From contig JAJDUK010000005.1 of the NCBI GenBank assembly GCA_022826665.1, forward strand, positions 55,262-119,261: a stretch of 64,000 nucleotides of DNA. The letters run 5' to 3'. The DNA comes from Alphaproteobacteria bacterium (GTDB taxonomy: Bacteria; Pseudomonadota; Alphaproteobacteria; UBA828). The translations under genes and the position numbers were made by a program. Shown piece after piece: positions 16,858 to 64,000 of this stretch (position 1 is the first letter of the stretch; every line of letters starts with the position of its first letter). The notes under the pieces are model-generated. The model was not told the origin of the DNA, made no database searches, and was given only the letters and a program-made list of their open reading frames with translations.

Positions 16858-16934
16858 TGGCGCGCCCGGCAGGACTCGAACCTGCGACCCCAAGCTTAGA
16901 AGGCTCGTGCTCTATCCGGCTGAGCTACGGGCGC
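16858..16934 (-). tRNA. tRNA-Arg (anticodon UCU)
   Basis: The reverse complement folds as a canonical cloverleaf. Acceptor GCGCCCG/CGGGCGC, D-arm GCTC/GAGC, anticodon stem CGAGC/GCTTG with loop CTTCTAA (anticodon TCT), T-arm GCAGG-TTCGAGT-CCTGC, encoded CCA. Confidence 0.85.
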
Positions 16935-18147: not shown

Positions 18148-19374
18148 TCACGCCGCGGCTGCGCGCTCCGTGAGCCAGGCCTCGATGCGGGCGATGGATT
18201 CCTCGATCTCCTCGGTGCTCGCGGCGTAGGAGAGGCGGAGGTAGCCCTCGCCGTAGGCGCCGAAGCTGGTGCCGGCGATGGTGGCGACGCCGGCCTCCTC
18301 CAGCAGCCCGTCCTGCAGCGTGCGCGCGTCGAGACCGGTGCCGGTGATGTTGGGCATGGCGTAGAAGGCGCCGGCGGAATCGACGCAGGTGATGCCCTCG
18401 ATCCGGTTGAGCGCGGGGACGATGAGCTTCCGCCGCTCGTCGAAGGTGCGGCGCATGACGTCGACCGACTCCTGCGGGCCGGTGAGCGCCGCGAGCGCCG
18501 CGTGCTGGGTCGGCGCGTTGACGCAAGAGTTGCAGTTGATCGCGAGCCGCGTGGCGTGCGCCGCGAGCGGTGCGGGCCACACCCCGTAGCCGATGCGCCA
18601 GCCGGTCATCGCATAGGTCTTGCTCCAGCCGTCGAGCACGATCACGCGGTCGCGCAGTACCGGATAGTCCAGCATCGTGACATGCTCCCGGCCCTCATAG
18701 AGCAGGCGGCTGTATATTTCGTCGCTCATGATCGCGACGTGGGGATGGGCCTCGAGCCCTTCGGCCAGCCGGTCGAAGGTTTCGCGCGGAACCACGCCGC
18801 CGGTCGGGTTGGCGGGGCTGTTGAGCATGACGAGCCGGGTGCGGGGCGTGATCTTGGCCAGCACCTCCTCGGCATCGAAGGAGAAGCCGGTCTCCTCGTA
18901 GAGCGGGATCGGCACCGGCGTCGCGCCGGAGAACTTGATCGCGGACTCGTAGATGGGGAAGCCCGGATTGGGATAGAGGATCTCGGCCCCCGGCTCGCCG
19001 AACATCAGCGCGGCGAAGAACATTGTGACCTTGCCGCCCGGCACCACCACGACGTTGTCGGGATCGACCTCGCAGCGGCGGTACGTGGCGATGTCGGCGA
19101 CCACCGCCTCGCGCAGGGCCGGGATGCCGTTCGCCGGGGTGTAACCGTGGTGGCCGTCCGCCAGCGCTTTGCGGCCCGCCTCGACGATATGGTCGGGGGT
19201 GCGGAAATCAGGCTGGCCGATCCCGAGATTGATGATGCTGCGCCCGGCCGCCTGCAAGGCGCCCGCGCGGGCCAATACGTCGAAGGCGGTCTCGGTCCCG
19301 AGCCGCCCCATGCGCTCGGCGATCTGCACGTGCGCCTCCCTGTCCCACTCAAAGGCCGCGCATGATGCCACCAA
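18148..19374 (-). CDS. pyridoxal phosphate-dependent aminotransferase (class I/II, aspartate aminotransferase-like)
   Basis: 408-aa ORF. INLGIGQPDF, NPANPTGGV and PLP lysine block LDGWSKTYAMTGWRIGY. Precise start is uncertain. Confidence 0.8.
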   Translation of the reverse strand: MVASCAAFEWDREAHVQIAERMGRLGTETAFDVLARAGALQAAGRSIINLGIGQPDFRTPDHIVEAGRKALADGHHGYTPANGIPALREAVVADIATYRRCEVDPDNVVVVPGGKVTMFFAALMFGEPGAEILYPNPGFPIYESAIKFSGATPVPIPLYEETGFSFDAEEVLAKITPRTRLVMLNSPANPTGGVVPRETFDRLAEGLEAHPHVAIMSDEIYSRLLYEGREHVTMLDYPVLRDRVIVLDGWSKTYAMTGWRIGYGVWPAPLAAHATRLAINCNSCVNAPTQHAALAALTGPQESVDVMRRTFDERRKLIVPALNRIEGITCVDSAGAFYAMPNITGTGLDARTLQDGLLEEAGVATIAGTSFGAYGEGYLRLSYAASTEEIEESIARIEAWLTERAAAA

Positions 19375-19580
19375 AGGAGGCTGCGCGGAACCGGACCTGC
19401 GCTATCATGCGGCGCCGACAGGGAGAGAACTCCGGGCTAGCGCACATCAAGTCCTTCTGTGGCGTTTGCTGTCCTCTCCTGCCGCAGATAATATCCAACG
19501 TAATCAGTAGGATATCTCCAAACGACGATTCTTGCAGTCACCCGAAAGCTCCGCTAGTCTCATTCATAACGTGGGACAGA

Positions 19581-20753
19581 ATGTGGAACAGACACTTGGC
19601 CAAGCAGCTCACCGCCGCCTTCGTGCGCACCGTCAACACCCCGGGCAAGTACCACGACGAGCATGGGTTGATCCTGCGTGTCGTCCTCTCCCAGCGCAAG
19701 CAATGGATCTCGAAATCCTGGGTCCAGCGCCTCGTCATCCACGGCCGGCGCCGCGACCTCGGTCTCGGGGCCTATCCGCTCGTCGGGTTGGCCGATGCGC
19801 GCGAACGCGCCCTGGACAACCGCCGCATTGCCCGTTCCGGCGGAGACCCGCGCGCACGGCCCGCCGCCGCCGCGCCAACCTTCGAGGAGGCCTTCGAGGC
19901 CGTCCTCTCCGTGAAGGCCCCGGCATGGAAGAGCCCGACTTCGCAGGTTTCATGGCGCCAGACGATGCGCCTCTACGTCTTCCCGCACATCGGAAGCCGG
20001 GGCGTCGACACCCTCACCACCAGCGACATGCTCCTGGTGCTCACGCCGCTGTGGAACGATAAGCCGCCCACCGCCAAGCGGGTGCTGCAACGCATGAGTT
20101 CGGTGTGCCGGTGGGCGATCGCCGAGGGGTACCGCAACGACGACCCGACGGCGAACGTGACGAGCGTCCTGCCCAGGCACAAGGGTGAGGAGAGACACCA
20201 TGAGGCGATGCCGTACGTGCAGGTCGGCGCGTTTCTTGTACGCCTGCGAGACGCGGCGGTTCCGCTACCGCGACGGCTGGCACTGGAGTTTCTCACCCTG
20301 ACCGCGGCGCGCACGAGCGAAGTGCGGCTGATGACCTGGGACGAGGTGGACACGGACGCCCGGACATGGACGGTGCCCGCGGCGCGGATGAAGATGATGC
20401 GGGAGCATCGGGTGCCGCTCGCCGAGCGCGCGGTGGCAATTCTCGATGAAGCGCGCGGGCTTCCCCGCCACGGCTCCCGGTGGGTGTTTCCGGGCACCGG
20501 CGGCGCGGAGTTGAGTCAGATGGCGCTGCTGCGCACCATGCGCAGGCTGGACGAGGAAGCGGCCACGCCGCACGGGATGCGCTCGGCGTTTCGTGATTGG
20601 TGTGGCGAGCAGTCCGACGCACCGCACGCGGTGATCGAGGCCGCCCTTGCGCATGTGGTGCGCAACAAGGCCGAGGCCGCCTACGCGCGGTCGGACCTGT
20701 TCGAGCGGCGCCGAGTGTTGATGGAGCAATGGGCGGCGTACCTCTGTCCATGA
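19581..20753 (+). CDS. int: tyrosine-type site-specific integrase (P4/CP4-57 family)
   Basis: ATG at 19581 inside ORF 19362..20753. Catalytic region TAARTSEVRLMTWDE, HGMRSAFRDW (H-x-x-R) and C-terminal Tyr region. Confidence 0.85.
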   Translation: MWNRHLAKQLTAAFVRTVNTPGKYHDEHGLILRVVLSQRKQWISKSWVQRLVIHGRRRDLGLGAYPLVGLADARERALDNRRIARSGGDPRARPAAAAPTFEEAFEAVLSVKAPAWKSPTSQVSWRQTMRLYVFPHIGSRGVDTLTTSDMLLVLTPLWNDKPPTAKRVLQRMSSVCRWAIAEGYRNDDPTANVTSVLPRHKGEERHHEAMPYVQVGAFLVRLRDAAVPLPRRLALEFLTLTAARTSEVRLMTWDEVDTDARTWTVPAARMKMMREHRVPLAERAVAILDEARGLPRHGSRWVFPGTGGAELSQMALLRTMRRLDEEAATPHGMRSAFRDWCGEQSDAPHAVIEAALAHVVRNKAEAAYARSDLFERRRVLMEQWAAYLCP

Positions 20754-35772: not shown

Positions 35773-35953
35773 TAACGCCTCGTCGCCGGCATTTCCGGCT
35801 CTCGGACCCCCGATCACATGTAGCCCGCTCGCCGGTCGCCAGCAACATTCCCGACCTTCCGCGGCGCGCCGGCAGGAGGCAGCGGCCGGCCTCTTCCGGG
35901 CGAATTCGGGGACCGGAAAGTGGCCCTCGCGCCACCGCCGGGGAGGCCGACCC

Positions 35954-40431: not shown

Positions 40432-40472
40432 CGTCCCAACGACACCGCCGCACCGTTCGAGGAGCAACCGCC

Positions 40473-43752: not shown

Positions 43753-43769
43753 ACGGCATCGCACAGGCG

Positions 43770-43810
43770 CCCCGCCCGGCACCCTCCCGCCGGGCGGGGC
43801 GTTTTTTCTT
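43770..43810 (+). terminator. rho-independent terminator downstream of parB-like gene
   Basis: Perfect 11-bp stem ccccgcccggc/gccgggcgggg with an 8-nt loop, followed by cGTTTTTTCTT. Confidence 0.6.
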
Positions 43811-43834
43811 CCGCAATTCCATGGAGGTCCGTCC

Positions 43835-48065: not shown

Positions 48066-48758
48066 ATGTGTGGCCGGTTTACCCAGAGGCTCTCGTGGAG
48101 AGAGCTGCACGAGCGGATGGATCTCATCGGCACCCCGCTCAACCTGCGGCCCCGCTACAACGTGGCGCCGAGCCAGGACGTGGCGGTCGCGCGCGCCGCC
48201 CAGGAAGGCCGCACCCTTTCCATGCTGCGTTGGGGGTTGATACCCGCCTGGGCGAAGGACCCGGCGATCGGCTACAAGCTCATCAACGCCCGGTCCGAGA
48301 CGGTCGCAGAGAAGCCGTCCTTCCGATCGGCCTTCCGCCATCGGCGCTGCCTGATCCCCGCGGACGGCTTCTACGAGTGGCAGCGCCGGGGCGGGACCCG
48401 GCAGCCCTGGCGGTTCGGCCTCCGGGACGGCGCCCCCATGATCTTCGCAGGCTTGTGGGAACGCTGGACTGTTCCCGAGGGTGCCGCCCTCACCGGATCG
48501 CTCGCCGAGCGCAGCCCCGGCGATGCGGTCGAGACCTGCACGATCCTCACCACCGCCGCCAACGAGACGGTCGCGCCAGTGCACGGCCGCATGCCGGTCA
48601 TCCTGCCGCCGGACGCCTGGGATGCCTGGCTCGCGGGTGAGGAGGTTTCGCTCGCCCCGTACTTGGCGGACGACACTACGGCTCATCCGGTCTCGACGCA
48701 CGTCAACCGGCCGGCCAACGACGACCCGCGCTGCATCGAGCCGATTTCGCTGAACTGA
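48066..48758 (+). CDS. SOS response-associated peptidase (SRAP/YedK/HMCES family; abasic-site processing protein)
   Basis: N-terminal MCGRF with catalytic Cys2. YNVAPSQDV and GFYEWQ blocks. Confidence 0.85.
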   Translation: MCGRFTQRLSWRELHERMDLIGTPLNLRPRYNVAPSQDVAVARAAQEGRTLSMLRWGLIPAWAKDPAIGYKLINARSETVAEKPSFRSAFRHRRCLIPADGFYEWQRRGGTRQPWRFGLRDGAPMIFAGLWERWTVPEGAALTGSLAERSPGDAVETCTILTTAANETVAPVHGRMPVILPPDAWDAWLAGEEVSLAPYLADDTTAHPVSTHVNRPANDDPRCIEPISLN

Positions 48759-49855: not shown

Positions 49856-50902
49856 ATGAATCCAACGATCCCCATGACCGACCTTTACGCCATCAACGTT
49901 CACCTTCAGGAACGGCTCGAACGGGACTGGCGCGAGGAAGTTCGCGCCGCCGAGGCCGCGCGCTGGCTGGACGAAGCCGGCCTTCTGCGAAACTACAAGA
50001 ACGGCCTGCCGCTGCGCAGATTGCTGCGCGCCGGACGCATCGCAGGCCAGCAACAGCGCCCAGACCGGAAGAACGGCGCATGGTTCATTCGTCGGCTCGC
50101 GGCGTCCCGCGACCCCGACGCGATCCGTGACGCCCGCTATCGGCTCCGGCGCTGTCTCCCCATCGACCGTGGCGTGCTGCCGCCCGACTGGCCGGTGAAC
50201 CAGGGTCCCGCCGTCTTCTGGCAGGAACTGGGCAAGACGGTCGCGACCTTCGGATACTTGGAGCACATTCTGGCCTCCACCTGCTACGCGCTCCTCGCGA
50301 CGGGCGAGAGGGCCGTCACGCTTCTCGAGGCGAACGACCATGCAGCCATGCGCCGGTGGACCAAGCGACTCCTGCGCTCCCAGACCGACAGCATGCGCCC
50401 TCTCACCCGCGAGCTCGACCGGGTCCTGACCGAGACCGGCCTGGTTCCCCGCGCCGTTCGCGAGGATCTCGTAGCGCGTCTCGATGAACTCCGGCCCTGG
50501 CGCAACGCCCTCTGCCACGGCGCGTGGCTCAGCGTCGCCGAAGACGGTTCCGCCCGCCTTGAGCACCTCTATAGGGACGACGAGGACCTTCCCGTCGCGT
50601 TCGAGCGGAACGTTGGAGTCAAGGACCTGTCCGACGTCCGCGCACGCACGGTCGATATCACCATACGCATCGCCGAAGCAGCCTCCGTCGCCGGCCCCGC
50701 CTACACCCATATGGGCGGCGTCGGCTACGCCCTCGCCACCGTCATGCCGCGCATGTACGAGCCGCGGAACGCCCCTCCCGAACCGGAGCTGCTGCACGCG
50801 GCCCGGCGCGCGGTCGAGCGCGACAGCACGCTTAGCAAAGAGAGACTTACCCGGCGCCTGGGGGCGCTCGATAGCGGGATCGCGCCGACCGAACCGGAAT
50901 AG
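49856..50902 (+). CDS. hypothetical protein with C-terminal HEPN-like R-x4-H motif
   Basis: LDELRPWRNALCHGAWL contains RNALCH (Rx4H) within a predicted helical segment. Otherwise no motif recognised. Confidence 0.4.
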   Translation: MNPTIPMTDLYAINVHLQERLERDWREEVRAAEAARWLDEAGLLRNYKNGLPLRRLLRAGRIAGQQQRPDRKNGAWFIRRLAASRDPDAIRDARYRLRRCLPIDRGVLPPDWPVNQGPAVFWQELGKTVATFGYLEHILASTCYALLATGERAVTLLEANDHAAMRRWTKRLLRSQTDSMRPLTRELDRVLTETGLVPRAVREDLVARLDELRPWRNALCHGAWLSVAEDGSARLEHLYRDDEDLPVAFERNVGVKDLSDVRARTVDITIRIAEAASVAGPAYTHMGGVGYALATVMPRMYEPRNAPPEPELLHAARRAVERDSTLSKERLTRRLGALDSGIAPTEPE

Positions 50903-55946: not shown

Positions 55947-56037
55947 CTCGCGGAGAATTCACCCGTTCAATGCCCGGCCGGGATACCTATTGCCGGCCGG
56001 GCGGCGGCCGGAGCCGCCGCAATCGAAGGAGAACCCC

Positions 56038-56307
56038 ATGACCGCGCAGACCCTGCCGGACAATCCGAATTTCTGTTTCTGCCCGGCCTACGACGTCGAG
56101 ACCGAGGTGCAGCAGATCAGAATCGTCATCGAAGGCCTCGCCGGGCACGTCCCGACCGCGCTCATCTCCCTCGACCTCGACGACGCCCTCAGCATCTGCG
56201 ACAAGCTGAACCGCCGGCTTGGCCTCGACCGGGAAGCTTGGACCGCCATGGTCGCCGCCTCCATGCGCGCCGAGGACGAGGACCCCGAGAGCGACCCCTG
56301 GCATTGA
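56038..56307 (+). CDS. hypothetical small protein (89 aa)
   Basis: ATG at 56038 by frame arithmetic, with an AAGGAG RBS. Confidence 0.35.
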   Translation: MTAQTLPDNPNFCFCPAYDVETEVQQIRIVIEGLAGHVPTALISLDLDDALSICDKLNRRLGLDREAWTAMVAASMRAEDEDPESDPWH

Positions 56308-56317
56308 GTCCGGCCCC

Positions 56318-56334
56318 CTGCTGCGCAGCCGGCC
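56318..56334 (+). repeat. 17-bp direct repeat copy 1 (CTGCTGCGCAGCCGGCC, contains 10-bp palindrome GCTGCGCAGC)
   Basis: Exact 17-mer seen three times in the same orientation. This copy lies 11 bp after the stop of the upstream small gene. Confidence 0.6.
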
Positions 56335-56565
56335 CGGCATCATCCAGGACCCCGGTTGGACGGGCGGCCGCTATCCGCAGACCATCCCGTCGCCGTCGCG
56401 GTCGTAGGTATCTGTATGGGCCGAGTGGTTGCGCGACAACGGCGTGATGCCGTCACGCATGGCTCCATCGAGGGGCAATCGAGGACGCCTGGATAACATT
56501 GGCCGGGTATGTGCAGATTCCACCGTCGTGGATGTGCCATGGAGCACTGAACGGGAGGAAGCGGC

Positions 56566-57747
56566 ATGCGGCGCCATCTTGTGGTTTGCACCGACGGAAC
56601 TTGGAACACGCCTGATCGGCGTGACCGCGGACGGATTGTCCCGAGCAACGTGGTCAAGGTGGCACGGGCGGTTGCCGGCTTCAATACCTCCGCTATCGAG
56701 CAAAAGGTCTATTACGATGCCGGCGTTGGCACGGGGGATTGGTGGGATCGAATCAAGGGCGGCGCCTTCGGATTCGGGCTATCGCAAAACGTGAAACAGG
56801 CCTACGTGGCCCTCGGGGAGATCTTCGCACGGGGTGACAAAATATTCCTGTTCGGCTTTTCGCGCGGTGCCTATACGGCGCGCAGTCTCGCTGGCCTGAT
56901 CGGACTGTGCGGAATTCCGGATAGTCAGAAAGGCAATGTCACGAGGATCGCCGAGGAGGCATTCAGGATTTACCGCTTAAGCCTTCGATCGCTCGACAGA
57001 GCAAATCAAGCGGAACAACACATCGAGACGTACTCCCACACGAAGAACGGCCGTGTTCTCAACAAAATCCACTTCATCGGCGTCTGGGATACCGTGGGCG
57101 CCCTCGGAATCCCGCTCGGGTTGTTCAGGGCATACAACCGGTACCGATTCCAGTTCCACGACACAGATCTGGGTGGCCATATCGAGAGAGCGTACCACGC
57201 GCTGGCGATCGACGAACGCCGCCGACCGTTCAAACCGACGCTATGGTTAGCCGCCAATGCACCGACGAAACAGGTCGTGGAACAGTTCTGGTTTCCGGGG
57301 GTTCATACCAACATCGGGGGCGGCTATATCGACCATGGGCTGTCGGATCGGGCGTTTCTGTGGATGTGCATCAAGGCGCGGGACGCAGGTCTCGGGTTCA
57401 AGGCCGACTACATGAACCTTCGCGTGATCCCCGACTATCACGGCGAGCTGAGAAATTCCCGGGTGGGGTTTTACAGACTGCTGCCTGCGAAAACGCGTTT
57501 GATCGGGACGACCAAAGCCGTGGGAGAGGCGATACATTACTCGGCGGAGGAGCGGTTCGAACATGCGACGGAACGCAACTACCAGGAGGGGCACGCGAGC
57601 AAGAACCTGGGCCCGCTCTTAAAGGATGCCGGGAAGATTGGAGGGCCGAGTGTGGCGCCTGCACTGAGAGCGGAGAAAGCGTTTCACAGCCGCCTGTCTG
57701 GGTACTTTTGGAAGGATGGCGGAGGATCGCCCAAGTCGTTCCCGTAA
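56566..57747 (+). CDS. DUF2235 domain alpha/beta hydrolase (Tle1-like phospholipase fold)
   Basis: LVVCTDGTWN N-terminus, GFSRGAYTAR (GxSxG nucleophile elbow), GVWDTVGALG. Lower GC than neighbours. Confidence 0.7.
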   Translation: MRRHLVVCTDGTWNTPDRRDRGRIVPSNVVKVARAVAGFNTSAIEQKVYYDAGVGTGDWWDRIKGGAFGFGLSQNVKQAYVALGEIFARGDKIFLFGFSRGAYTARSLAGLIGLCGIPDSQKGNVTRIAEEAFRIYRLSLRSLDRANQAEQHIETYSHTKNGRVLNKIHFIGVWDTVGALGIPLGLFRAYNRYRFQFHDTDLGGHIERAYHALAIDERRRPFKPTLWLAANAPTKQVVEQFWFPGVHTNIGGGYIDHGLSDRAFLWMCIKARDAGLGFKADYMNLRVIPDYHGELRNSRVGFYRLLPAKTRLIGTTKAVGEAIHYSAEERFEHATERNYQEGHASKNLGPLLKDAGKIGGPSVAPALRAEKAFHSRLSGYFWKDGGGSPKSFP

Positions 57748-57838
57748 CAGGCTATGCGCGCCAGCGCACGAAGCCCGCTGAAGAGATATTGAGAATTTGG
57801 GGTGTTGCCGTTCTGGCCGAACGGACGGACGGTGTCGT

Positions 57839-57855
57839 CTGCTGCGCAGCCGGCC
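57839..57855 (+). repeat. 17-bp direct repeat copy 2 (CTGCTGCGCAGCCGGCC)
   Basis: Exact copy about 90 bp after the stop of the DUF2235 gene. Confidence 0.6.
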
Positions 57856-58048
57856 CGAATCCCCCGAGCCTATCCCGCCGTACGCCGCGCACAGGCAGGC
57901 CCGGCGCACGCACGGCGACCGTCGGAGGGGCGGGCAGTTCCCGAAGGCCAACCCAGTACCGCTAGTCTCCGCCGGCGGTGGGAAACCGTGGATCGCCGCC
58001 TCCGAGACCGTCTGACTCAAAGCCCGCCGCGCGACTGCGCCGTCTTCC

Positions 58049-58065
58049 CTGCTGCGCAGCCGGCC
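58049..58065 (+). repeat. 17-bp direct repeat copy 3 (CTGCTGCGCAGCCGGCC)
   Basis: Exact copy about 210 bp after copy 2. Confidence 0.6.
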
Positions 58066-58582
58066 AAGCGCCGTCTCCGGTCAGTCCCTCCAGCCAAGCC
58101 ACCACCACACGATCCAGACCGGTAGGCGACCGCAACGGCGCGACCCGCGATCGAGAGCGGACTGAGCAGCCCGGCCGGTAGCGTCACCGCCACCGTCGCC
58201 GCGCCGGTAGCCGAGCCGCCACAGCCTCCAGCTTCCAAGCGCGAGCGGCAGGCCGCAGGGGACGAACGGCGCCAGCGTCAGCCCCTCCATCGCCATCGTC
58301 GCCGGCCACGGCCCCAGCCGCCCTGCCGCCACCGCGTCCGTCCACCCGAACCGCACGGCCACCTGCGCCACGATCCCGGCCGGCAGCCAGAGCAGCGCCA
58401 GCGGCCAGAACCCGTGACGGCCGATCCATCCGCGCCCTTCCATGCCGTATCCCTGCACCGGACGGGGGCGACGTTCAAGCCAGCTCGGACCAAATATCGC
58501 CGGAGAGGCGGAGAAGAGCGTGCTGGGAGCGAAGCCGCTGACGGAGAGGGAGTGGCGGCAGTCGCAACCGGGGAGATCGACC

Positions 58583-59119
58583 ATGCCGACATTGCGATAT
58601 GCGGGGATTGGGGCGCGTGCGACGCCGGTGGCCGTGCTGGCGGACATGACTGTGCTGGCGGGATGGCTGGCCCGGACCGGCTGGCATCTTTCGAGCGGTG
58701 GGGCGAATGGAGCCGACACTGCGTTCGCCGAGGGTACGCCCGCCGGGCAGAGGACGATCTGGCTGCCGTGGCGGGACTGTAACGGGAATCGGGGGACGGA
58801 CTGCCGGGTGTTGTCGGCTGAGGCGATGGCGGAGTGCATCGAGATCGCGGCGCCCCTGCATCCGGCGTGGGAGCGGTGTTCGCCGGCCGTCCGCATGCTG
58901 CATGCCAGGAACGCGGCGGTGTTGCTTGGCGACACGCTGGGCCGGCCCGTCGATGCAGTCGTGTGCTGGAGCGAACGCGGCGCGGTTACCGGAGGCACTG
59001 GCATGGCTATCCGTATCGCCGAGGCCCGCGGCATCCCGGTGCTGAACCTGGGATCGATGACCCCGCGTGCCGTCTGCGAGCGCCTGGCCGCAATCCGCCG
59101 CGCCGTCCATCGGTCATAG
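58583..59119 (+). CDS. SLOG superfamily (DprA/Smf/LOG-like Rossmann fold) protein
   Basis: YAGIGARATP...LSSGGANGADTAFAEG (GGAxGxD) with IWLPW. ATG at 58583 by frame arithmetic. The 414-aa antisense ORF 58081..59325 is judged spurious. Confidence 0.55.
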   Translation: MPTLRYAGIGARATPVAVLADMTVLAGWLARTGWHLSSGGANGADTAFAEGTPAGQRTIWLPWRDCNGNRGTDCRVLSAEAMAECIEIAAPLHPAWERCSPAVRMLHARNAAVLLGDTLGRPVDAVVCWSERGAVTGGTGMAIRIAEARGIPVLNLGSMTPRAVCERLAAIRRAVHRS

Positions 59120-59220
59120 AGGAAGAGTGAAGCGCCTGCCGGGCGAGTGTCCGGCAGGGCGGAGGGAGTGGGTCCCCCGCGCCGATGCCGGGCAGGGCAA
59201 CGGCAGAGGAGGTCCCGCCC

Positions 59221-59454
59221 ATGTTTCATCCCGACACATCCCTCGATCACCTGGCCGAGCTCGGCATCGACCCGGCGGCTGTCCGCGAGGTCATCGACGA
59301 CGAGCGCGCGATCCGCTGTCCGCACCGCGCCGTCGTCTATCCCGCATACGGCTTCGCAAGCCTTTCCCCGGAACCGGCGTTGGAGATGGTCCTTCAGGAC
59401 GCGGCGCCGGCGGAGCCCTGGGACCCGGCGTCGTCGCTTCCCCCGGCCGATTAG
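59221..59454 (+). CDS. hypothetical small protein (77 aa)
   Basis: In-frame ATG (MFHPDTSLDHLAELGIDPAAVREV). No motif. Confidence 0.3.
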   Translation: MFHPDTSLDHLAELGIDPAAVREVIDDERAIRCPHRAVVYPAYGFASLSPEPALEMVLQDAAPAEPWDPASSLPPAD

Positions 59455-59564
59455 AGGTGGAGGAGGGCTTGGAGAGATTGAACGGAAGGGGGGTCGGGGG
59501 AGTGAACCCGGCCTCCGGCCGTTCGGAACCCATCGTCATCAACCAGGAACCACAGGAGAGCGTC

Positions 59565-60026
59565 ATGCCCTTCGGAAAGAATCACGCGGAACTGGTCGGC
59601 CGCCTCGGCGACGACGTCACCGTCAACCACCTCAGGAACGGCGGCCGCGTCGCCAACATGAGCATCGCGACCGACGAGTCGTACATCGACAAGAACTCGG
59701 GCGAGAAGGTCGACAAGACCGAGTGGCACCGGGTCGTCACCTTCCAGGACGGGCTGATCGACATGCTCCAGAGGCACGCGACGAAGGGCCGCTTGATCCA
59801 CGTCGAGGGCAAGCTCCAGACTCGGCGCTGGAAGAAGGACGGCGAGGACTCCTGGCGCTTCTCGACCGAGATCCTCGTCGTGCCGGGCCACAGGGTGCAG
59901 TTCTACGACAAGCCCAACGGCAGCAGCGCGCCGGCCGCGGACGCCCAGGCACCCGCGAACGGCACGGACATGCCGGACGGCGGCGCCCCGGCGCAGACCG
60001 GCGACATCGAGGACCCGCCCTTCTAG
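59565..60026 (+). CDS. ssb: single-stranded DNA-binding protein
   Basis: OB-fold blocks GRLGDDVTVNHLRNGGRVANMSIATDESY, KTEWHRVVTF and VEGKLQTRRWKKDGEDSWRFSTEIL. Gly/Pro/Asp-rich tail ending DIEDPPF (acidic tip). Confidence 0.85.
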   Translation: MPFGKNHAELVGRLGDDVTVNHLRNGGRVANMSIATDESYIDKNSGEKVDKTEWHRVVTFQDGLIDMLQRHATKGRLIHVEGKLQTRRWKKDGEDSWRFSTEILVVPGHRVQFYDKPNGSSAPAADAQAPANGTDMPDGGAPAQTGDIEDPPF

Positions 60027-60191
60027 GCGCTTCCCGCCCATTCCTCCTCCCTCCCGCCTCGGGGGCCGGCGCTTCGGCGCCGGTCCCCCCTTTTGCAGCC
60101 GAACCGGAGTCCCCCAATGTCCGTTGGGCGCGCGGCGACGGAGGCGGAGAGGAGCGCCGGAGGGGCGTTCCATTGCCCAGGGAGAGAGAGC

Positions 60192-60776
60192 ATGCGCGAC
60201 AACACCGAGAGCGTCTTCGCCCGGGGGGCCGTCATCGTCCCCGACTTCGTCACCCCGGCCGAGGAGGAGCGCATCCTGCTCCGCATCGGCGCCGCGCCCT
60301 GGCTCACCGAGCTGCGACGGCGCGTCCAGCATTACGGCTACCGCTACGACTACCGCGGCGCCAGCCGCCCGGTCCCCGCCGCGCCGTTTCCGCGCTGGGC
60401 CGGGGTCATGGCGGACCGGCTGCGGGACCGCTTCGGGAGCGCGCTGCCGGTGCAGTGCATCGTCAACGAGTACCGCCCCGGCCAGGGGATCGGCATGCAC
60501 GCCGACCATCGCGACTTCGGCGACGTCGTCGCCTCGCTGTCGCTCGCCGCCGACTGGCCGATGCGCTTCCGGCCGCGCTCCGTCCGCCCCTACGCCCGCG
60601 ACGGCCTGCCGGGCGACGAGGTCGCCGTGCTGCCCCGCCGCTCGGTCCTGGTCCTCGCGGGCGAGGCGCGCCGGGACTGGATGCACGGCATCGACCGCGC
60701 CGACACCGCCGGCGCGGCCGCCACCCGCGTCTCCGCCACCTTCCGGACGCTCGCGTCCGGCGCCGGCCGGCCGTGA
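60192..60776 (+). CDS. 2OG-Fe(II) oxygenase, AlkB-like
   Basis: IVNEYRPGQGIGMHADHRD (H-x-D) with a downstream His in WMHGIDR and RxS-type 2OG anchoring (RVSATF). Confidence 0.6.
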   Translation: MRDNTESVFARGAVIVPDFVTPAEEERILLRIGAAPWLTELRRRVQHYGYRYDYRGASRPVPAAPFPRWAGVMADRLRDRFGSALPVQCIVNEYRPGQGIGMHADHRDFGDVVASLSLAADWPMRFRPRSVRPYARDGLPGDEVAVLPRRSVLVLAGEARRDWMHGIDRADTAGAAATRVSATFRTLASGAGRP

Positions 60777-60826
60777 GCCGGCCCGACCCGTCCTCTTCCA
60801 TCTTCCCCCAACCAGGAGCACCGCCC

Positions 60827-61909
60827 ATGATCCGCTTCACCCAGGGCGACCTCTTCGCCTCCGGCTGCGAGGCTCTCGTCAATCCCGTCAACTGCGTCGG
60901 CGTGATGGGCAGGGGGCTCGCCCTCCAGTTCCGGCACCGCTTCCCGGCCAACTACGAGGCCTATCGGCACGCCTGCGCGCGCCGCGAGGTCCGGCCCGGG
61001 CTCTGCTTCGTCTTCGACGCCGGCGCCGGGCCGGCGCGCTTCGTCGTCAACTTCCCAACCAAGCGCCACTGGCGCGACCGCAGCCGCATTGAGGACATCG
61101 CCGCCGGGCTCGACGACCTCGCCGGCATCCTCCGCCGCCGCGCCATCGGCTCCGTCGCGATCCCGCCGCTCGGCTGCGGCCTGGGCGGACTGCCCTGGCC
61201 CGCCGTCCGCTCGCTGCTGGTCGACCGCCTCGCATCCTGCTCCGGCGTCTCGATCATCATCTTCGAGCCTGGCGGACCGGAGCCGAGGCGCGCTTGCGGC
61301 GGGGCGAAGCGCGGCAGGGCCGGAGGGAGTCCGCCGCCGGCAACGGAGGATGACGGAATGCGTATCTACCACCGCGACGAGGTTTGCCCGTTCCGGTTTA
61401 CCCGGGCGGCCTGGGGCGAATTCAGCAATTTCGCGCCGCTGACGGCGCCGATCGCCGCCGGCCCGTGGACGTTTGCGACGTCCGAGCACCTGTACCAGGC
61501 GGCGAAGTTCGGCGCCGCCCCGGCGGTGCAGCGCCGGATCGCCGGCGCGCCGACGGCGCGCGAGGCGGCCGCCATCGGGCGCGGCGAGCGCACCGGCGTC
61601 GATCCCCGCTGGAACGAGCAGCGGGTGAACGTCATGCGCTGGGTGCTGCGCATGAAGCGCGAGACCAACGCCGCCGCGATCGATGCCGCCCTCGCCGCGA
61701 CCGGCGAGCGCGCCATCGTCGAGGTCTCGACCCGCGACCCCTGGTGGGGCGCCAGGCCGGACGGCGACCGCTATCGCGGCGCGAACGTGCTCGGCCGGCT
61801 CTGGATGGAGCTCCGCCAGCAGCTGTGCGACGGCGATCCCGCCGCGCGCGCCGCCGCGTGGGCCGGGCGCATCCGCGTCGGCCGGCTGGCCGATGCGCCG
61901 CGCGCCTGA
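60827..61909 (+). CDS. macro domain fused to NADAR (YbiA-like) domain protein
   Basis: N-terminal LFASGCEALVNPVNCVGVMGRGLALQF (macro glycine loop). C-terminal EFSNFAP...SEHLYQAAKF (NADAR ExxYQxxK block). AGGAG RBS 9 nt upstream of ATG 60827. Confidence 0.7.
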   Translation: MIRFTQGDLFASGCEALVNPVNCVGVMGRGLALQFRHRFPANYEAYRHACARREVRPGLCFVFDAGAGPARFVVNFPTKRHWRDRSRIEDIAAGLDDLAGILRRRAIGSVAIPPLGCGLGGLPWPAVRSLLVDRLASCSGVSIIIFEPGGPEPRRACGGAKRGRAGGSPPPATEDDGMRIYHRDEVCPFRFTRAAWGEFSNFAPLTAPIAAGPWTFATSEHLYQAAKFGAAPAVQRRIAGAPTAREAAAIGRGERTGVDPRWNEQRVNVMRWVLRMKRETNAAAIDAALAATGERAIVEVSTRDPWWGARPDGDRYRGANVLGRLWMELRQQLCDGDPAARAAAWAGRIRVGRLADAPRA

Positions 61910-62051
61910 CCGGCGCGCTCGCCGGCCTTCTTCTTTCTGACCGTCCTGGCCTCGCGACCCCGCTTCGCGCGGCCCGCTCGCCCTCCTGCGCCGGCCGGAG
62001 GGGAGGCCGGCCGGTATCGGGCATCTCGCTCGCCTTGGAAGGAAGTCCCGC

Positions 62052-63053
62052 ATGCAGCACCAACCGTCTCCCGCCGCCGGCATCGCCGCGGCGCTCGCAG
62101 CGCGCGCCGAGGAGGTGTGCAGGCAATATCTACCGCATGGCCGTCGCCAGGGCCGCTACTGGATCTGCGGCGACCTCGACGGCGCTCGCGGACGCTCGCT
62201 CTTCGTCCGCCTCTCCGGCTCCGGCAAGCCCGGTGGGTGGACGGATGCAGCAACGGGGCAGCACGGCGATCTGCTCGACCTGATCCGCTACCGCTCAGGA
62301 GCGCCGACGCTGCGCGCGGCGCTCGACGAGGCGCGGCGCTTCCTCGCCCTGCCGACTTCGCCGGCGACGGCCTCGGATGCGCCCTACGACGCGACCGAGG
62401 CGGCGCGCCGCCTGTGGCGGCGCTGCCGCGCCATCGACGGCAGCCACGCCGAGCGGTATCTCCACGCCCGGGGGCTGTCGCGCTGCCGCTTCGCGACGCT
62501 GCGCTTCCATCCCGAGCTTCGCTATCGCGAAGGCTCGTCCGTGCGCCGGTTACCGGCGCTGGTCGCCGCCGTCACCGGCGGCGACGGCGCCATCCTCGGC
62601 GTGCAGCGCACCTGGCTCGACCCGCGCTCCCCCGCCAAGGCGGGCGTCGCTACGCCGCGCAAGGCGCTCGGCCGCATCCACGGCCTCGCGGTGCGCTTCG
62701 GCGCGCCCTCCGACATCGCTCCGCTCGTCGTCGGCGAGGGCATCGAGACGGTGCTCTCGCTGGTCACCGCCGTGCCGGAGATCACGGCTGCAGCAGCGCT
62801 CTCGGCCGGGAGCCTCGGCGCGTTCGCGCCTCCCTCCGGCCTCGCGCGGCTGGTGATCGCCCGCGACAACGACGAGGACGGCGCGCTCGCGGCCGAGCGC
62901 CTCGCCCGGCGCTGCGCGCGGGCGGGCATCGCCGCCACCGTCATCGTGCCCGCCGGCAACGACTTCAACGACGACCTCGTCGCGCTCGGCTCAGCGGCGC
63001 TCTGCGCCCGCTTCGCGCCGCTGTTCCGCTCCGCCTGCGCCTCCGGCTCATAG
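62052..63053 (+). CDS. toprim domain protein (DUF7146/primase-like, ICE type)
   Basis: VVGEGIETVLS (toprim Glu) and IARDNDEDG (DxD). Confidence 0.65.
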   Translation: MQHQPSPAAGIAAALAARAEEVCRQYLPHGRRQGRYWICGDLDGARGRSLFVRLSGSGKPGGWTDAATGQHGDLLDLIRYRSGAPTLRAALDEARRFLALPTSPATASDAPYDATEAARRLWRRCRAIDGSHAERYLHARGLSRCRFATLRFHPELRYREGSSVRRLPALVAAVTGGDGAILGVQRTWLDPRSPAKAGVATPRKALGRIHGLAVRFGAPSDIAPLVVGEGIETVLSLVTAVPEITAAAALSAGSLGAFAPPSGLARLVIARDNDEDGALAAERLARRCARAGIAATVIVPAGNDFNDDLVALGSAALCARFAPLFRSACASGS

Positions 63054-63133
63054 GCCGGACCGATATCCCGCTCCGGTGGAGGAAGAGAAGAGCGGAGGGT
63101 CGGGCAAGCCGACCCGAGGAGTGGAGGGAGTCC

Positions 63134-63469
63134 ATGAGAGCCATCGTCAATCTGAAGCACGAGCCGGCGCTGCGCGACGAGTTCGAATACGCGCTTGTCG
63201 TCGATAACACCGTGCTGATCGACCGCCGCACCAGGTGGGGCAACCCGTTCAGAATCGGCGAAGACGGGTCGCGGGATGAGGTGATCGCCCGCTACCGCGC
63301 GCATCTATGGCAACACATCCAGGCAGGCGACGTTTCGCTGGAAGAGCTCGCAGAGCTCGACGGGTGCTGGCTGGCCTGTTGGTGCGAGCCGCTGCCCTGT
63401 CATGGAGATGTGCTCGCCAAGGCGGCGGCGTGGGCCTCCGGGGTGTTGGCCGATCGGAAGGGTTCGTGA
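63134..63469 (+). CDS. DUF4326 domain protein
   Basis: RWGNPF...WLACWCEPLPCHGDVL Cys/His cluster typical of DUF4326. In-frame ATG at 63134. Confidence 0.55.
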   Translation: MRAIVNLKHEPALRDEFEYALVVDNTVLIDRRTRWGNPFRIGEDGSRDEVIARYRAHLWQHIQAGDVSLEELAELDGCWLACWCEPLPCHGDVLAKAAAWASGVLADRKGS

Positions 63470-63767
63470 GATGCGTTCCTTCGTTCCTGTCGTACAGGGG
63501 GAATTGGGCGATGCCTTCGGCCCGGGCTATCCGCTGCAATCTCCACTCGCTGGCGCTCGCTCCGATTTCCGCTTCTATCCCTATCGCCTCCGCTCGCAAG
63601 CTCGCTCCGCGCTTCGCTTGGCAAAGCGGCTGGCGCCGCTTGGGGGCATGAAAAGCGCCTCCCGACGTGAAGTCCTATCGTGTCACACGTGCTCGCGACA
63701 GCAACCCTCCGGGTCCTCCGGTCGCTCCGCTCCCTGCGGCCTGGCCCAAGAACCTCTAGGGCGGGCC

Positions 63768-63982
63768 GTGAAAGTCGCCGACCGTGAAGTTGGGCTTGCC
63801 AGAACTCCCAACCACCTCGCCTGTGGCGCGCCGGTCCCTGAAGAAGGGCCCGGCGCGGAGGCCCGGCGCTCCCAGCCCTTGAGAAGGCCAACTCGAAACT
63901 CGGCCAACCACCGCGACCCCGCGCCGGGCCTCCCATAACCGGACGACGCCCAACTTCCGCACCACTCGGCGACTTTCCGCAC
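63768..63982. repeat. nested imperfect inverted repeats (outer arms about 28-35 bp, inner arms 13 bp)
   Basis: Outer left gtgaAAGTCGCCGAccgtgAAGTTGGGC pairs with outer right GCCCAACTTccgcaccacTCGGCGACTTtccgcac. Inner GGAGGCCCGGCGC pairs with GCGCCGGGCCTCC. Confidence 0.4.
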
Positions 63983-64000
63983 CAACCCCGCCCAAGAGGT

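What the first reader, a model, noticed from the sequence alone, without database searches (positions are those of the whole stretch)
60827..61909. Macro::NADAR fusion next to ssb and alkB-like genes: candidate reversal enzyme for DNA ADP-ribosylation
Seen in sequence: Both domain signatures are present, a macro glycine loop and an NADAR ExxYQxxK block.

Established knowledge:
- Macro domains (for example DarG) remove ADP-ribose from thymidine in ssDNA.
- NADAR domains were shown to reverse guanine ADP-ribosylation by DarT-like toxins.

Inference: A single protein carrying both domains, encoded in a conjugative-element leading region beside SSB, AlkB-like and SRAP, would be suited to counteract DarT-type toxin systems or ADP-ribosylating defences attacking incoming ssDNA. 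That is an anti-defence role.
Basis: partly seen in the sequence, partly recalled or inferred. Interest (0 to 1): 0.7.

Follow-up and report, generated by a model that had tools for sequence, protein, structure and literature searches.

The report
Fused DarG-like macro and NADAR enzyme
A mobile genetic island in an uncultured alphaproteobacterium encodes one protein joining two different ADP-ribose-removing enzymes, with no matching toxin nearby; it most likely strips ADP-ribose marks off DNA, as some phages do to escape the DarTG defence.

Summary
ORF 60827-61909 (+, 360 aa) has an N-terminal macro domain (Pfam 75 bits) and a C-terminal NADAR domain (82 bits), joined by a disordered linker of about 30-40 residues.

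- **Macro half.** It belongs to the DarG clade: 153 bits to the T. aquaticus DarG macrodomain, model TM 0.94, catalytic Lys kept (K79).
- **NADAR half.** It is YbiA-type and keeps all eight ADP-ribose-contacting residues of the solved P. nicotianae NADAR.
- **Not a DarTG antitoxin.** The DarT-binding half of DarG is missing, and a DarT profile finds nothing in the window or in related loci.
- **Real and in use.** The fusion is intact in several independent assemblies, with dN/dS about 0.2-0.4 in both domains.
- **Setting.** The gene lies in an integrase-bearing island, and a TrwC relaxase lies 8.6 kb downstream. Its slot between ssb and a Toprim gene holds AlkB-like, macro and NADAR modules in different orders and fusions in relatives (Macro::NADAR, NADAR::Macro, Macro::AlkB). 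Elsewhere these modules occur in 840-1766-aa multidomain proteins.

Best reading: an orphan two-headed DNA de-ADP-ribosylase (thymidine- and guanosine-linked) used as a counter-defence. A "leading region" location is not shown, SRAP is 12 kb away, and a small-molecule substrate is not excluded. Tandem Macro/NADAR proteins and phage orphan erasers (AdfM, AdfN) are already described, so this is a new variant of a known kind.

The parts
60827..61909 (+). Macro::NADAR fusion gene (360 aa plus stop)
   Evidence: ORF and translation. Pfam Macro and NADAR both pass. An identical protein is on ENA contig L081. dN/dS over the whole gene is 0.23-0.32 against L001-L003.
60827..61276 (+). DarG-clade macro domain (residues 1-150). 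N22 is at 60890, catalytic K79 at 61061, and the glycine loop PPLGCGLGG (residues 113-121) at 61163-61189.
   Evidence: 153 bits to T. aquaticus DarG macro 5M31 and 144 bits to M. tuberculosis DarG 5M3I. FPTK79RHW aligns with FPTK80KHW. Foldseek TM 0.94, rmsd 1.0-1.2 A. NCBIfam and PADLOC DarG 215 and 222 bits. N22 aligns with N23 of PhiKZ AdfM.
61277..61357 (+). Low-complexity, disordered linker (residues 151-177)
   Evidence: pLDDT is below 50 for residues 151-183. dN/dS is relaxed at 0.2-2.5. The segment is homologous to the N-terminal leader of some stand-alone NADAR ORFs (alignment A1).
61345..61360 (+). Internal Shine-Dalgarno-like GGAGGA (61345-61350) and the ATG of M178 (61358-61360), where stand-alone NADAR homologues begin
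   Evidence: Sequence. Stand-alone NADARs such as P0016, P0018 and P0038 start at the aligned MR(I/T)Y. Independent translation from this site is an inference.
61358..61906 (+). YbiA-type NADAR domain (residues 178-360), with E220, K227, R252, W262, R266, E299, D304 and W307
   Evidence: Pfam NADAR 82 bits. E. coli YbiA 2B3W 67 bits. Alignment to P. nicotianae NADAR 8BAU places all eight ADPr-contacting residues. Numbering. Residue roles from PMC11543638.
61910..61925 (+). Terminator-like hairpin directly after the stop codon
   Evidence: It is the only terminator-like site in 58300-63600, but the count is not above the shuffle expectation of 1.4. Weak evidence.
60093..60776 (+). AlkB-like 2OG-Fe(II) dioxygenase gene, immediately upstream (the gene call on L081 starts at 60117)
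   Evidence: Pfam 2OG-FeII_Oxy_2, 77 bits. H136-x-D138, a later H and RxSxTFR are present. Only 21.6 bits to canonical AlkB. 83% identical to the AlkB half of the Macro::AlkB fusion P0054.
59565..60026 (+). Single-strand DNA-binding protein gene
   Evidence: Pfam SSB, 79 bits.
58583..59119 (+). DprA-like (SLOG-type) gene, the most frequent fusion partner of this NADAR clade
   Evidence: PHROG 768 "DprA-like DNA recombination-mediator protein", 163.8 bits. 54-61% identical to domains fused to NADAR, Macro and DUF4326 in P0121, P0122, P0124, P0129, P0130 and others.
62052..63053 (+). DUF7146-Toprim gene, immediately downstream
   Evidence: Pfam DUF7146 and Toprim_3. Matches the C-terminal region of the TraI relaxase model TIGR02760 at 63 bits.
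63134..63469 (+). DUF4326 gene, a recurrent fusion partner of NADAR and Macro
   Evidence: Pfam DUF4326, 87.7 bits. Fused with NADAR or Macro in P0121, P0130, P0132, P0134 and P0148. Gene call on L081.
19362..20753 (+). Tyrosine integrase near tRNA-Arg (16858-16934), the likely left end of the island
   Evidence: Pfam Phage_integrase, Phage_int_M and Arm-DNA-bind_3. tRNA-Arg.

Best explanation
The gene encodes a two-headed, toxin-less (orphan) nucleic-acid de-ADP-ribosylase carried by an integrative mobile element.

Proposed mechanism:
- The N-terminal DarG-type macrodomain hydrolyses ADP-ribose from thymidine N3 in single-stranded DNA, the mark written by DarT2.
- The C-terminal YbiA-type NADAR domain hydrolyses the N-glycosidic ADP-ribose-guanine bond, and possibly the cytidine bond. 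These marks are written by DarT1, pierisin/ScARP-like or YarT-like transferases.
- A flexible linker lets the two heads work independently on the same DNA strand.
- The protein is probably made together with SSB, an AlkB-like dioxygenase, a DprA-like protein and a Toprim protein. It would clear base adducts from the element's DNA when the element enters or resides in cells with ADP-ribosylating defence or addiction systems. This would be a counter-defence role like phage AdfM plus AdfN in one polypeptide.

Shown here: the domain identities, intact catalytic residues, absence of DarT and of the DarT-binding domain, purifying selection on both halves, mobile-element context, and combinatorial shuffling and fusion with DNA-handling modules.

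Inferred: the substrates, co-expression, and the benefit to transfer or establishment.
For: - **Macro half.** It is DarG-clade: 153 and 144 bits to the DarG macrodomains of T. aquaticus and M. tuberculosis. Catalytic Lys (K79) is conserved. The model matches 5M31, 5M3E and 5M3I at TM 0.94, rmsd 1.0-1.2 A. PADLOC DarG scores 222 bits. It is closer to validated DarG2 than the validated phage eraser AdfM is (84.7 bits, 33% identity), and AdfM N23 aligns with N22 (PMC13309987).
- **NADAR half.** It keeps E220, K227, R252, W262, R266, E299, D304 and W307. These equal E43, K50, R79, W89, R93, E125, D130 and W133 of the ADPr-bound P. nicotianae NADAR (PMC11543638). Every NADAR or YbiA tested removed guanosine-ADPr in vitro and none removed thymidine-ADPr, so the two heads are complementary (PMC11125620).
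- **Orphan status.** The DarG profile matches only positions 1-152 of 338. A DarT HMM (positive control 344 bits; control ORF confirmed as NCBIfam DarT, 225.8 bits) finds nothing in the window or in L001-L009 and L081.
- **Both halves under selection.** dN/dS is 0.20-0.27 for macro and 0.20-0.40 for NADAR, with a relaxed linker.
- **DNA-centred context.** The neighbours are ssb, an AlkB-like gene, a DprA-like gene and a Toprim gene. Macro::AlkB fusions occur in the same backbone.
- **Variable slot.** The ssb-Toprim slot holds different combinations of the three modules in L001-L009.
- **Mobile element.** There is an integrase. A TrwC relaxase lies downstream on L081 and L085.
- **Plausible adversaries.** Canonical DarT-DarG pairs occur on alphaproteobacterial plasmids and genomes.
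- **Precedent.** Phage orphan NADAR AdfN (PMC11825919) and phage orphan macro AdfM (PMC13309987).
Against: - No enzymatic or genetic test was possible.
- No paper found here shows that DarT-type systems restrict conjugation or ICE establishment.
- The "leading region" placement is unproven. On this element the relaxase is convergent with the cluster, and no oriT or type IV secretion genes were seen.
- The NADAR is YbiA-type (Glu, not Asp, in the last strand) and shows no confidently modelled N-terminal extension. E. coli YbiA and one phage NADAR cleaved guanosine-ADPr in vitro but did not rescue DarT1 toxicity in cells (PMC11125620).
- The domain also passes the NCBIfam riboflavin-intermediate N-glycosidase model (79.6 bits against a cut-off of 73.7).
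- Its recurrent partners (DUF4326, SLOG/DprA-like, YAcAr) were interpreted by Iyer et al. 2022 as processing soluble ADP-ribose derivatives (PMC9503650).
Confidence: 0.55

Rival explanations
1. The protein degrades soluble ADP-ribose-derived immune signals or toxins (cyclic ADPR variants, ADPr-phosphates and the like) rather than DNA adducts. It would work with the neighbouring DUF4326 (rhodanese-phosphatase-like) and SLOG-type proteins, blunting NAD+-derived signalling defences such as Thoeris-like systems.
For: Iyer et al. 2022 noted tandem NADAR+Macro proteins in viruses. [quoted passage not shown] Here the same partners recur: DprA-like/SLOG, DUF4326 and YAcAr are neighbours in the window and L081. 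They are fused with NADAR and Macro in P0121-P0134, P0148 and P0155.
Against: The macro half is a close relative of DarG macrodomains, whose only known substrate is thymidine-ADPr in ssDNA (PMC13309987). Experiments published after the 2022 proposal showed that NADARs cleave guanosine-ADPr on DNA and RNA (PMC11543638, PMC11125620, PMC11833690). Fusion of the same macro clade to an AlkB-like nucleic-acid dioxygenase, and adjacency to ssb and Toprim genes, point to nucleic acid.
Confidence: 0.15
2. It is cargo that benefits the resident host rather than transfer. It would act as an orphan immunity or repair enzyme against ADP-ribosyltransferase toxins delivered by competitors (Rhs/T6SS, CDI, YarT- or Tre23-like). 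Alternatively it would act as an anti-addiction module neutralising DarT from incoming DarTG plasmids.
For: YbiA-type NADARs without an N-terminal extension act as antitoxins of the non-DarT transferase YarT (PMC11125620). PARG-type macro enzymes act as immunity against the RNA-targeting toxin RhsP2, and NADARs reverse guanosine-ADPr on RNA (PMC11833690). The anti-addiction idea is discussed in PMC11825919. DarTG pairs sit on plasmids of related Alphaproteobacteria. A T6SS Tle1-like phospholipase gene is inserted in the same cluster.
Against: The gene sits in a conserved co-oriented block of DNA-processing and establishment-type genes (Sbno-like helicase, ssb, Toprim, relaxase), not in the low-GC cargo region. 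The biochemistry would be the same as in the best explanation, so this differs only in who benefits and when.
Confidence: 0.15
3. It is a housekeeping or metabolic fusion. The YbiA-type domain would remove reactive riboflavin-pathway intermediates and the macro domain would deacetylate O-acetyl-ADP-ribose, as automatic annotation would suggest.
For: NCBIfam TIGR02464 (riboflavin biosynthesis intermediates N-glycosidase domain) is passed at 79.6 bits against a cut-off of 73.7. JGI names related macro proteins "O-acetyl-ADP-ribose deacetylase".
Against: The gene is on a mobile island, absent from or rearranged in close relatives, and has no riboflavin genes nearby. The macro half scores 215-222 bits to DarG models but only 27.5 bits to the ADP-ribose-binding protein model.
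Confidence: 0.05
4. It is the antitoxin of a cryptic toxin-antitoxin or defence pair whose toxin is an unrecognised neighbour, for example a DS-32-like NADAR+PRTase system.
For: The best NCBIfam hit of the NADAR half is the DS-32 NADAR anti-phage protein model (129.6 bits, near full length). DS-32 pairs a NADAR with a phosphoribosyltransferase (bioRxiv 10.1101/2025.01.08.631726).
Against: The score is far below the family cut-off of 240. No PRTase or ART domain was found in the neighbours scanned. There is no DarT. The neighbours vary between relatives, whereas a toxin partner should be fixed.
Confidence: 0.04

Closest known systems
DarG (DarG2), macrodomain antitoxin of the DarT2-DarG toxin-antitoxin system (T. 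aquaticus 5M31/5M3E, M. tuberculosis 5M3I)
   Same: The N-terminal 150 residues are a close homologue (153 and 144 bits; model TM 0.94). The catalytic Lys, the ADP-ribose-binding Asn and the glycine loop are conserved.
   Different: There is no C-terminal DarT-binding domain (profile matched 1-152 of 338; 215 bits, below the 250 cut-off) and no adjacent DarT. In a crude NJ tree the mobile-element macros form a sister group to DarT-linked DarGs rather than nesting among them (no support values).
AdfM (PhiKZ gp104), phage orphan DarG2-like macrodomain that removes DarT2 marks from phage DNA (PMC13309987)
   Same: It is a toxin-less DarG-like macrodomain on a mobile element. Key residues align: AdfM N23 with N22, and FPTK with FPTK.
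   Different: Identity is only 33%. AdfM is a single-domain phage protein imported into the phage nucleus. Here the domain is fused to a NADAR and sits on an integrative element.
AdfN and DarG1, NADAR enzymes that reverse DarT1 guanosine ADP-ribosylation (PMC11825919, PMC11543638)
   Same: NADAR fold with the conserved Glu/Lys pair (E220, K227) and ADPr-binding residues. AdfN is likewise an orphan on a mobile element.
   Different: This NADAR is YbiA-type: Glu299 where DarT1-linked NADARs use Asp, and no confident N-terminal extension. The DarT1-linked G. lovleyi NADAR structure was not retrieved by sequence.
E. coli YbiA (2B3W) and myxobacterial YbiA-like antitoxins of YarT (PMC11125620)
   Same: YbiA is the best solved-structure match of the C-terminal half (67 bits). 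It has the same core fold without an extension. YbiA-type enzymes cleave guanosine-ADPr in vitro.
   Different: There is no ybiB/dinG-type operon and no YarT-like transferase nearby. The domain is fused to a macrodomain.
Tandem NADAR+Macro proteins, and SLOG/DUF4326/Macro/NADAR fusions of DNA viruses (Iyer et al. 2022, PMC9503650)
   Same: It has the same domain vocabulary and the same habit of shuffling and fusing. Relatives found here include DprA-like+NADAR+Macro+DUF4326 in a single 1124-aa protein.
   Different: Those were described in phages and giant viruses and assigned to soluble ADPr-signal degradation. This one is in an integrase- and relaxase-bearing island next to ssb and Toprim genes, is associated or fused with an AlkB-like dioxygenase, and its macro is DarG-clade.
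DS-32 defence system NADAR protein (NCBIfam NF053876; DefensePredictor)
   Same: It is the best curated family hit for the NADAR half, aligned over 157 of 181 profile positions.
   Different: The score is 129.6 bits against a cut-off of 240, and there is no phosphoribosyltransferase partner.

Membership tests
Macro domain superfamily (Pfam PF01661) | Profile match above the gathering score | tested here: met
   75.3 bits against a cut-off of 22, residues 18-129.
DarG-clade macrodomain | Close sequence and structure similarity to DarG macrodomains, with the catalytic Lys (TaqDarG K80), the ADPr-binding Asn and the glycine loop | tested here: met
   5M31 at 153 bits and 5M3I at 144 bits; K79, N22 and PPLGCGLGG conserved. 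Foldseek TM 0.94. PADLOC DarG 222 bits.
DarG antitoxin of DarTG2 (NCBIfam NF048014, equivalog) | Full-length architecture with the C-terminal DarT-binding domain, scoring above the cut-off | tested here: not met
   Only profile positions 1-152 of 338 match. The score of 215.2 is below the 250 cut-off.
DarG antitoxin of DarTG2 | Adjacent DarT (DUF4433) toxin gene | tested here: not met
   A DarT HMM built from 35 DarG-adjacent ORFs (positive control 344 bits) gives no hit better than E about 1 in six-frame translations of the window, L001-L009 and L081. The control ORF was confirmed as NCBIfam DarT.
DarG-clade macrodomain | Hydrolysis of thymidine-linked ADP-ribose on ssDNA | not testable with these tools
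   Needs an in vitro assay on DarT2-modified TNTC oligonucleotides.
NADAR superfamily (Pfam PF08719) | Profile match above the gathering score | tested here: met
   82 bits against a cut-off of 35.1, residues 194-333.
NADAR superfamily | Conserved catalytic and ADPr-contacting residues (P. nicotianae E43, K50, R79, W89, R93, E125, D130, W133) | tested here: met
   E220, K227, R252, W262, R266, E299, D304 and W307 by alignment to 8BAU. Residue roles from PMC11543638.
YbiA family of NADAR (as opposed to BC4488 / DarT1-linked) | Glutamate, not aspartate, at the conserved charged position of the last strand | tested here: met
   E299 aligns with YbiA's VE and with P. nicotianae E125. Definition from PMC11543638 and PMC11125620.
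DarG1 (DarT1-linked NADAR antitoxin) | Adjacent DarT1 gene, plus an N-terminal basic extension with the conserved Lys and catalytic Asp | tested here: not met
   No DarT-family gene was found. Glu is present instead of Asp. Residues 179-196 are modelled with low confidence, so the extension itself is inconclusive.
NADAR superfamily | Hydrolysis of guanosine-linked ADP-ribose on DNA or RNA | not testable with these tools
   Needs an in vitro assay on ScARP- or DarT1-modified oligonucleotides.
DS-32 defence system (NADAR + PRTase) | NF053876 above the cut-off, and a PRTase partner gene | tested here: not met
   129.6 bits against a cut-off of 240. No PRTase was found among the scanned neighbours.
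Orphan antitoxin-like anti-DarT factors of mobile elements (AdfM / AdfN type) | ADP-ribosylhydrolase domain homologous to a DarG antitoxin, encoded without a toxin on a mobile element | tested here: met
   Orphan status. Island with an integrase and a TrwC relaxase. Homology to AdfM.
Orphan antitoxin-like anti-DarT factors of mobile elements | Protects the element against DarTG-carrying cells | not testable with these tools
   Needs toxicity-rescue and transfer assays.
Leading-region anti-defence gene of a conjugative element (sense of Samuel et al. 2024) | Located within the first ORFs after oriT on the transferred strand of an element with relaxase and oriT | tested here: inconclusive
   A relaxase is present 8.6 kb downstream, but it is convergent on L081. 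It is co-directional and downstream in the related element L085. No oriT or type IV secretion genes were identified. All genes from about 36 to 63.5 kb are co-oriented.

The most novel reading that the evidence does not exclude
The slot between ssb and the Toprim gene is an anti-defence hotspot of "DNA adduct erasers". A DarG-like macro (T-ADPr), a NADAR (G- and C-ADPr) and an AlkB-like dioxygenase (alkyl or another defence-written base mark) would act with DprA-like and DUF4326 partners. They would form one multi-enzyme system, sometimes welded into polyvalent proteins of 840-1766 aa, that cleans incoming single-stranded element DNA. If so, DNA base ADP-ribosylation, and perhaps other enzymatic base modification, would be a significant and so far unreported barrier to conjugative or ICE transfer, and mobile elements would carry a dedicated multi-specificity counter-measure.
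Probability: 0.3. Interest if true: 0.7.

Novelty: new variant of a known kind. Interest (0 to 1): 0.5.

Why it matters
Phages are now known to escape DarTG1 and DarTG2 with separate orphan erasers (AdfN and AdfM). Nothing comparable has been reported for conjugative or integrative elements, and the leading-region anti-defence survey read here does not mention macro, ADP-ribosyl or AlkB functions.

A single protein combining a thymidine-specific and a guanosine-specific eraser would be a compact, testable pan-DarT counter-measure. It would also be a useful reagent for removing DNA ADP-ribosylation.

Its shuffling and fusion with an AlkB-like dioxygenase, a DprA-like protein and DUF4326 gives a concrete gene set for a practical question: do these widespread Macro/NADAR/SLOG/DUF4326 modules act on DNA adducts or on soluble signals? 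The computational literature leaves that question open.

Tried and rejected
- **Plasmid DNA search.** Megablast of 56000-64000 against PLSDB plasmids gave no match.
- **Protein search of plasmids and phages.** tblastn of the protein against 72,556 plasmids and 50,697 phages found no record covering 80% or more of the fusion, only single-domain hits. The best plasmid hits examined (Methylobacterium, Bradyrhizobium) are ordinary DarT-DarG pairs.
- **Extending the element through its relaxase.** The closest long-contig relaxase homologue (L082) lies in an unrelated island and said nothing about oriT or transfer genes here.
- **DarT search.** Negative.
- **The DprA-like neighbour (orf58442).** Pfam, NCBIfam and PDB sequence searches found nothing. 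Only PHROGs named it.
- **Promoters.** The sigma-70 promoter scan of 58300-63600 found none, which is uninformative in 70-75% GC DNA.
- **Assembly or frameshift artefact.** Rejected: the frame is intact in several independent assemblies, under purifying selection.
- **The 920-aa ORF.** Rejected as the gene: it is a GC-rich stop-free frame, and the true start has an RBS and matches homologues.
- **Filing as DarG, DarG1 or DS-32.** Rejected on the membership tests.
- **Macro::AlkB domain order.** I first misread it as AlkB::Macro from the Pfam list. The alignment shows macro at the N-terminus.
Full report
**What is there**

The reported coordinates are exactly one ORF, 60827-61909 on the + strand (360 aa). 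Its ATG is preceded by AGGAG eight bases upstream. The 920-aa ORF listed in the same frame is only a stop-free run in 75% GC DNA.

Both profile calls proposed as the test are passed clearly:
- Macro PF01661, residues 18-129, 75.3 bits.
- NADAR PF08719, residues 194-333, 82 bits.

An AlphaFold2 model built on a 37-sequence alignment shows two confidently folded domains, with block pLDDT mostly 80-96. They are separated by a disordered segment, residues 151-193.

**The macro half is a DarG-type macrodomain**

- It scores 215 bits to NCBIfam's DarG antitoxin model and 222 bits to PADLOC's DarG.
- It scores 153 and 144 bits to the solved DarG macrodomains of Thermus aquaticus and Mycobacterium tuberculosis.
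- FPTK79RHW aligns with FPTK80KHW, the catalytic lysine motif.
- The model superposes on 5M31, 5M3E and 5M3I at TM 0.94 and 1.0-1.2 A.
- Other macro families score far lower: TARG1 and SCO6735 about 26-29 bits.
- The validated phage eraser AdfM (PhiKZ gp104) is only 33% identical, yet aligns throughout, with its mutated Asn23 on N22.

The window's domain is therefore nearer to proven thymidine-ADPr hydrolases than a proven orphan eraser is.

**The NADAR half is YbiA-type with an intact active site**

- The best solved relative is E. coli YbiA (67 bits).
- The alignment to ADPr-bound P. nicotianae NADAR (8BAU) places E220, K227, R252, W262, R266, E299, D304 and W307 on E43, K50, R79, W89, R93, E125, D130 and W133 (roles from PMC11543638).
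- Glu299 marks the YbiA family rather than the DarT1-linked BC4488 family, which has Asp there.
- In published tests every NADAR or YbiA removed guanosine-ADPr from DNA and none removed thymidine-ADPr. In-cell rescue of DarT1 toxicity varied (PMC11125620).
- Curated-family hits are ambiguous: DS-32 NADAR 129.6 bits (cut-off 240), and riboflavin-intermediate N-glycosidase domain 79.6 bits (cut-off 73.7).

**It is not a DarTG antitoxin**

Only the first 152 of 338 positions of the DarG profile are matched, so the DarT-binding half is replaced by NADAR.

I built a DarT HMM from 35 ORFs lying directly upstream of canonical DarG genes in fetched loci. One of these was confirmed as NCBIfam DarT at 225.8 bits. 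The HMM recovers its positive control at 344 bits. It finds nothing better than E about 1 in six-frame translations of the window and of the related loci.

**The fusion is real and in use**

- About nine 90%-identity clusters, at 80-93% identity to the query, carry both domains.
- Four independent DNA sequences keep the 360-codon frame.
- dN/dS is 0.20-0.27 for macro and 0.20-0.40 for NADAR. The linker is relaxed.
- Stand-alone NADAR homologues begin at the residue aligned with M178. The linker resembles the leader of some of them.
- A GGAGGA sits seven bases before that internal ATG.

The fusion therefore looks like loss of a stop between two adjacent genes. The NADAR half might still be translated alone, but that is an inference.

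**Context**

- Positions 1-16.8 kb carry housekeeping genes.
- tRNA-Arg is at 16858-16934 and a tyrosine integrase at 19362-20753.
- A low-GC block lies at 26-36 kb.
- From about 36 kb to the end, all genes are co-oriented on the + strand. They include RadC, SRAP (48066-48758) and a 1494-aa Strawberry-notch-like helicase. They continue with a Tle1-like gene, a DprA-like gene, ssb, an AlkB-like gene, Macro::NADAR, DUF7146-Toprim and DUF4326.
- The identical protein lies on an ENA contig (L081) that continues with a YAcAr/SLOG gene. It then reaches a TrwC-type relaxase starting 8.6 kb beyond the stop codon, on the opposite strand.
- In a related element (L085) the relaxase is downstream and co-directional.

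This is therefore an integrated, relaxase-bearing mobile element. Neither oriT nor mating-pore genes were seen, so "leading region" remains unproven.

**A combinatorial slot**

tblastn of the window's proteins on loci sharing the same backbone shows that the ssb-Toprim interval varies:

| Locus | Content of the interval |
|---|---|
| window, L001, L002, L006 | AlkB-like + Macro::NADAR |
| L003 | Macro::NADAR without AlkB |
| L004 | NADAR, AlkB, Macro in another order |
| L005 | NADAR only |
| L007 | AlkB + Macro, with a distant NADAR later |
| L009 | NADAR, DUF4326, AlkB, with no macro |
| L085 | Macro::AlkB fusion |

The AlkB half of such a Macro::AlkB fusion (P0054) is 83% identical to the window's AlkB-like protein.

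A search of 1.84 billion representative proteins found the same domains welded together in other orders:
- NADAR::Macro (P0123, P0060).
- Macro::NADAR at 43% identity (P0137).
- DprA-like+NADAR+Macro+DUF4326 (P0121, 1124 aa).
- Macro+DprA-like+NADAR (P0122).
- Many DprA-like+NADAR proteins with DUF4326 or YAcAr, up to 1766 aa.

In a crude neighbour-joining tree the mobile-element macros form a group sister to DarT-linked DarGs (no support values).

**Interpretation**

The most economical reading is an orphan, two-specificity nucleic-acid de-ADP-ribosylase: the macro head for thymidine-ADPr and the NADAR head for guanosine-ADPr, perhaps also cytidine-ADPr. The element would use it, alongside SSB and the AlkB-like, DprA-like and Toprim proteins, to keep its DNA free of defence- or competitor-written adducts.

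Two kinds of background fit this reading:
- Phage precedents exist for each head separately: AdfN (PMC11825919) and AdfM (PMC13309987).
- Canonical DarT-DarG pairs are common in Alphaproteobacteria, including on plasmids, so adversaries are at hand.

The main rival is the earlier computational proposal. It holds that Macro, NADAR, SLOG and DUF4326 modules of DNA viruses degrade soluble ADP-ribose-derived signals (PMC9503650). The same partner set occurs here, so I cannot exclude it. Against it stand the DarG-clade identity of the macro, the later biochemical data on NADARs, and the AlkB-like fusion.

A second rival keeps the biochemistry but makes the resident host the beneficiary, through immunity to delivered ADP-ribosyltransferase toxins or an anti-addiction role. 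Metabolic and cryptic-antitoxin readings are unlikely.

**Novelty**

Already described:
- tandem NADAR+Macro proteins in viruses;
- DUF4326 and SLOG fusions with these domains;
- orphan antitoxin-like erasers in phages.

New here:
- a DarG-clade macro fused to a YbiA-type NADAR on an integrase- and relaxase-bearing island of uncultured Alphaproteobacteria;
- its place in a variable slot next to ssb;
- its linkage and fusion with an AlkB-like dioxygenase.

No full-length counterpart exists in the plasmid or phage collections searched. The leading-region anti-defence survey read here does not mention such functions.

I rate it a new variant of a known kind, of moderate interest. The function is directly testable with existing DarT, ScARP and DarG reagents.

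Noticed in passing
window 26617-32391 (- strand): The low-GC block (52-53% against about 70% GC) carries three adjacent genes: a C5 cytosine DNA methylase, a Response_reg_2 (PF19192) protein, and a 987-aa HATPase_c_3/HEF_HK/HATPase_c protein. It looks like a horizontally acquired defence or DNA-modification cassette inside the island.
   Followed up: partly
window 56566-57747 (+): A T6SS Tle1-like phospholipase (DUF2235) gene at 62% GC sits between the helicase and the DprA-like gene. It is present in the window and L081 only. L001-L004 and L007 lack it at this position, so this is a second variable slot in the backbone.
   Followed up: partly
proteins P0121, P0122, P0124, P0129, P0130, P0132-P0134, P0148, P0155 (found with the window protein): Multidomain proteins of 840-1766 aa concatenate homologues of five separate genes of this cluster in many orders: DprA-like, NADAR, DarG-like Macro, DUF4326 and YAcAr. 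Long stretches between these domains match no Pfam family.
   Followed up: partly
window 58583-59119 (+): The DprA-like gene has no Pfam, NCBIfam or PDB sequence match. It matches PHROG 768 strongly and is the commonest fusion or neighbour partner of this NADAR clade, also in L014, L015 and L022.
   Followed up: partly
L081 19693-21083 (-) and L085 14566-17077 (+): The TrwC-type relaxase downstream of the cluster is convergent in the window's own element. It is co-directional in a related element with the same backbone. This implies an inversion or different module joining near the presumed oriT.
   Followed up: no
window 62052-63053 (+): The DUF7146-Toprim protein matches the C-terminal part (positions 1593-1863 of 1960) of the conjugative relaxase/helicase TraI model TIGR02760. 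This suggests a detached relaxase-associated primase-like module.
   Followed up: no
window 61345-61360 (+): An internal Shine-Dalgarno-like GGAGGA lies 7 nt before the ATG of M178. Stand-alone NADAR homologues start at exactly this aligned position, so a separate NADAR product from the fused gene is possible.
   Followed up: partly
window 35717-36769 and 41296-43752 (+): A PAPS-reductase-like gene and an 818-aa protein with weak ParB N-terminal and HTH matches lie at the start of the co-oriented block. Several large neighbours (40257-41129, 43562-45595, 49856-50902) have no family match at all.
   Followed up: no
window 22448-24235 (-): A 595-aa ORF combines DUF924 with a C-terminal HATPase_c_2 (anti-sigma/serine-kinase-like) domain just inside the integrase end of the island. 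It may be two genes read as one in GC-rich DNA.
   Followed up: no
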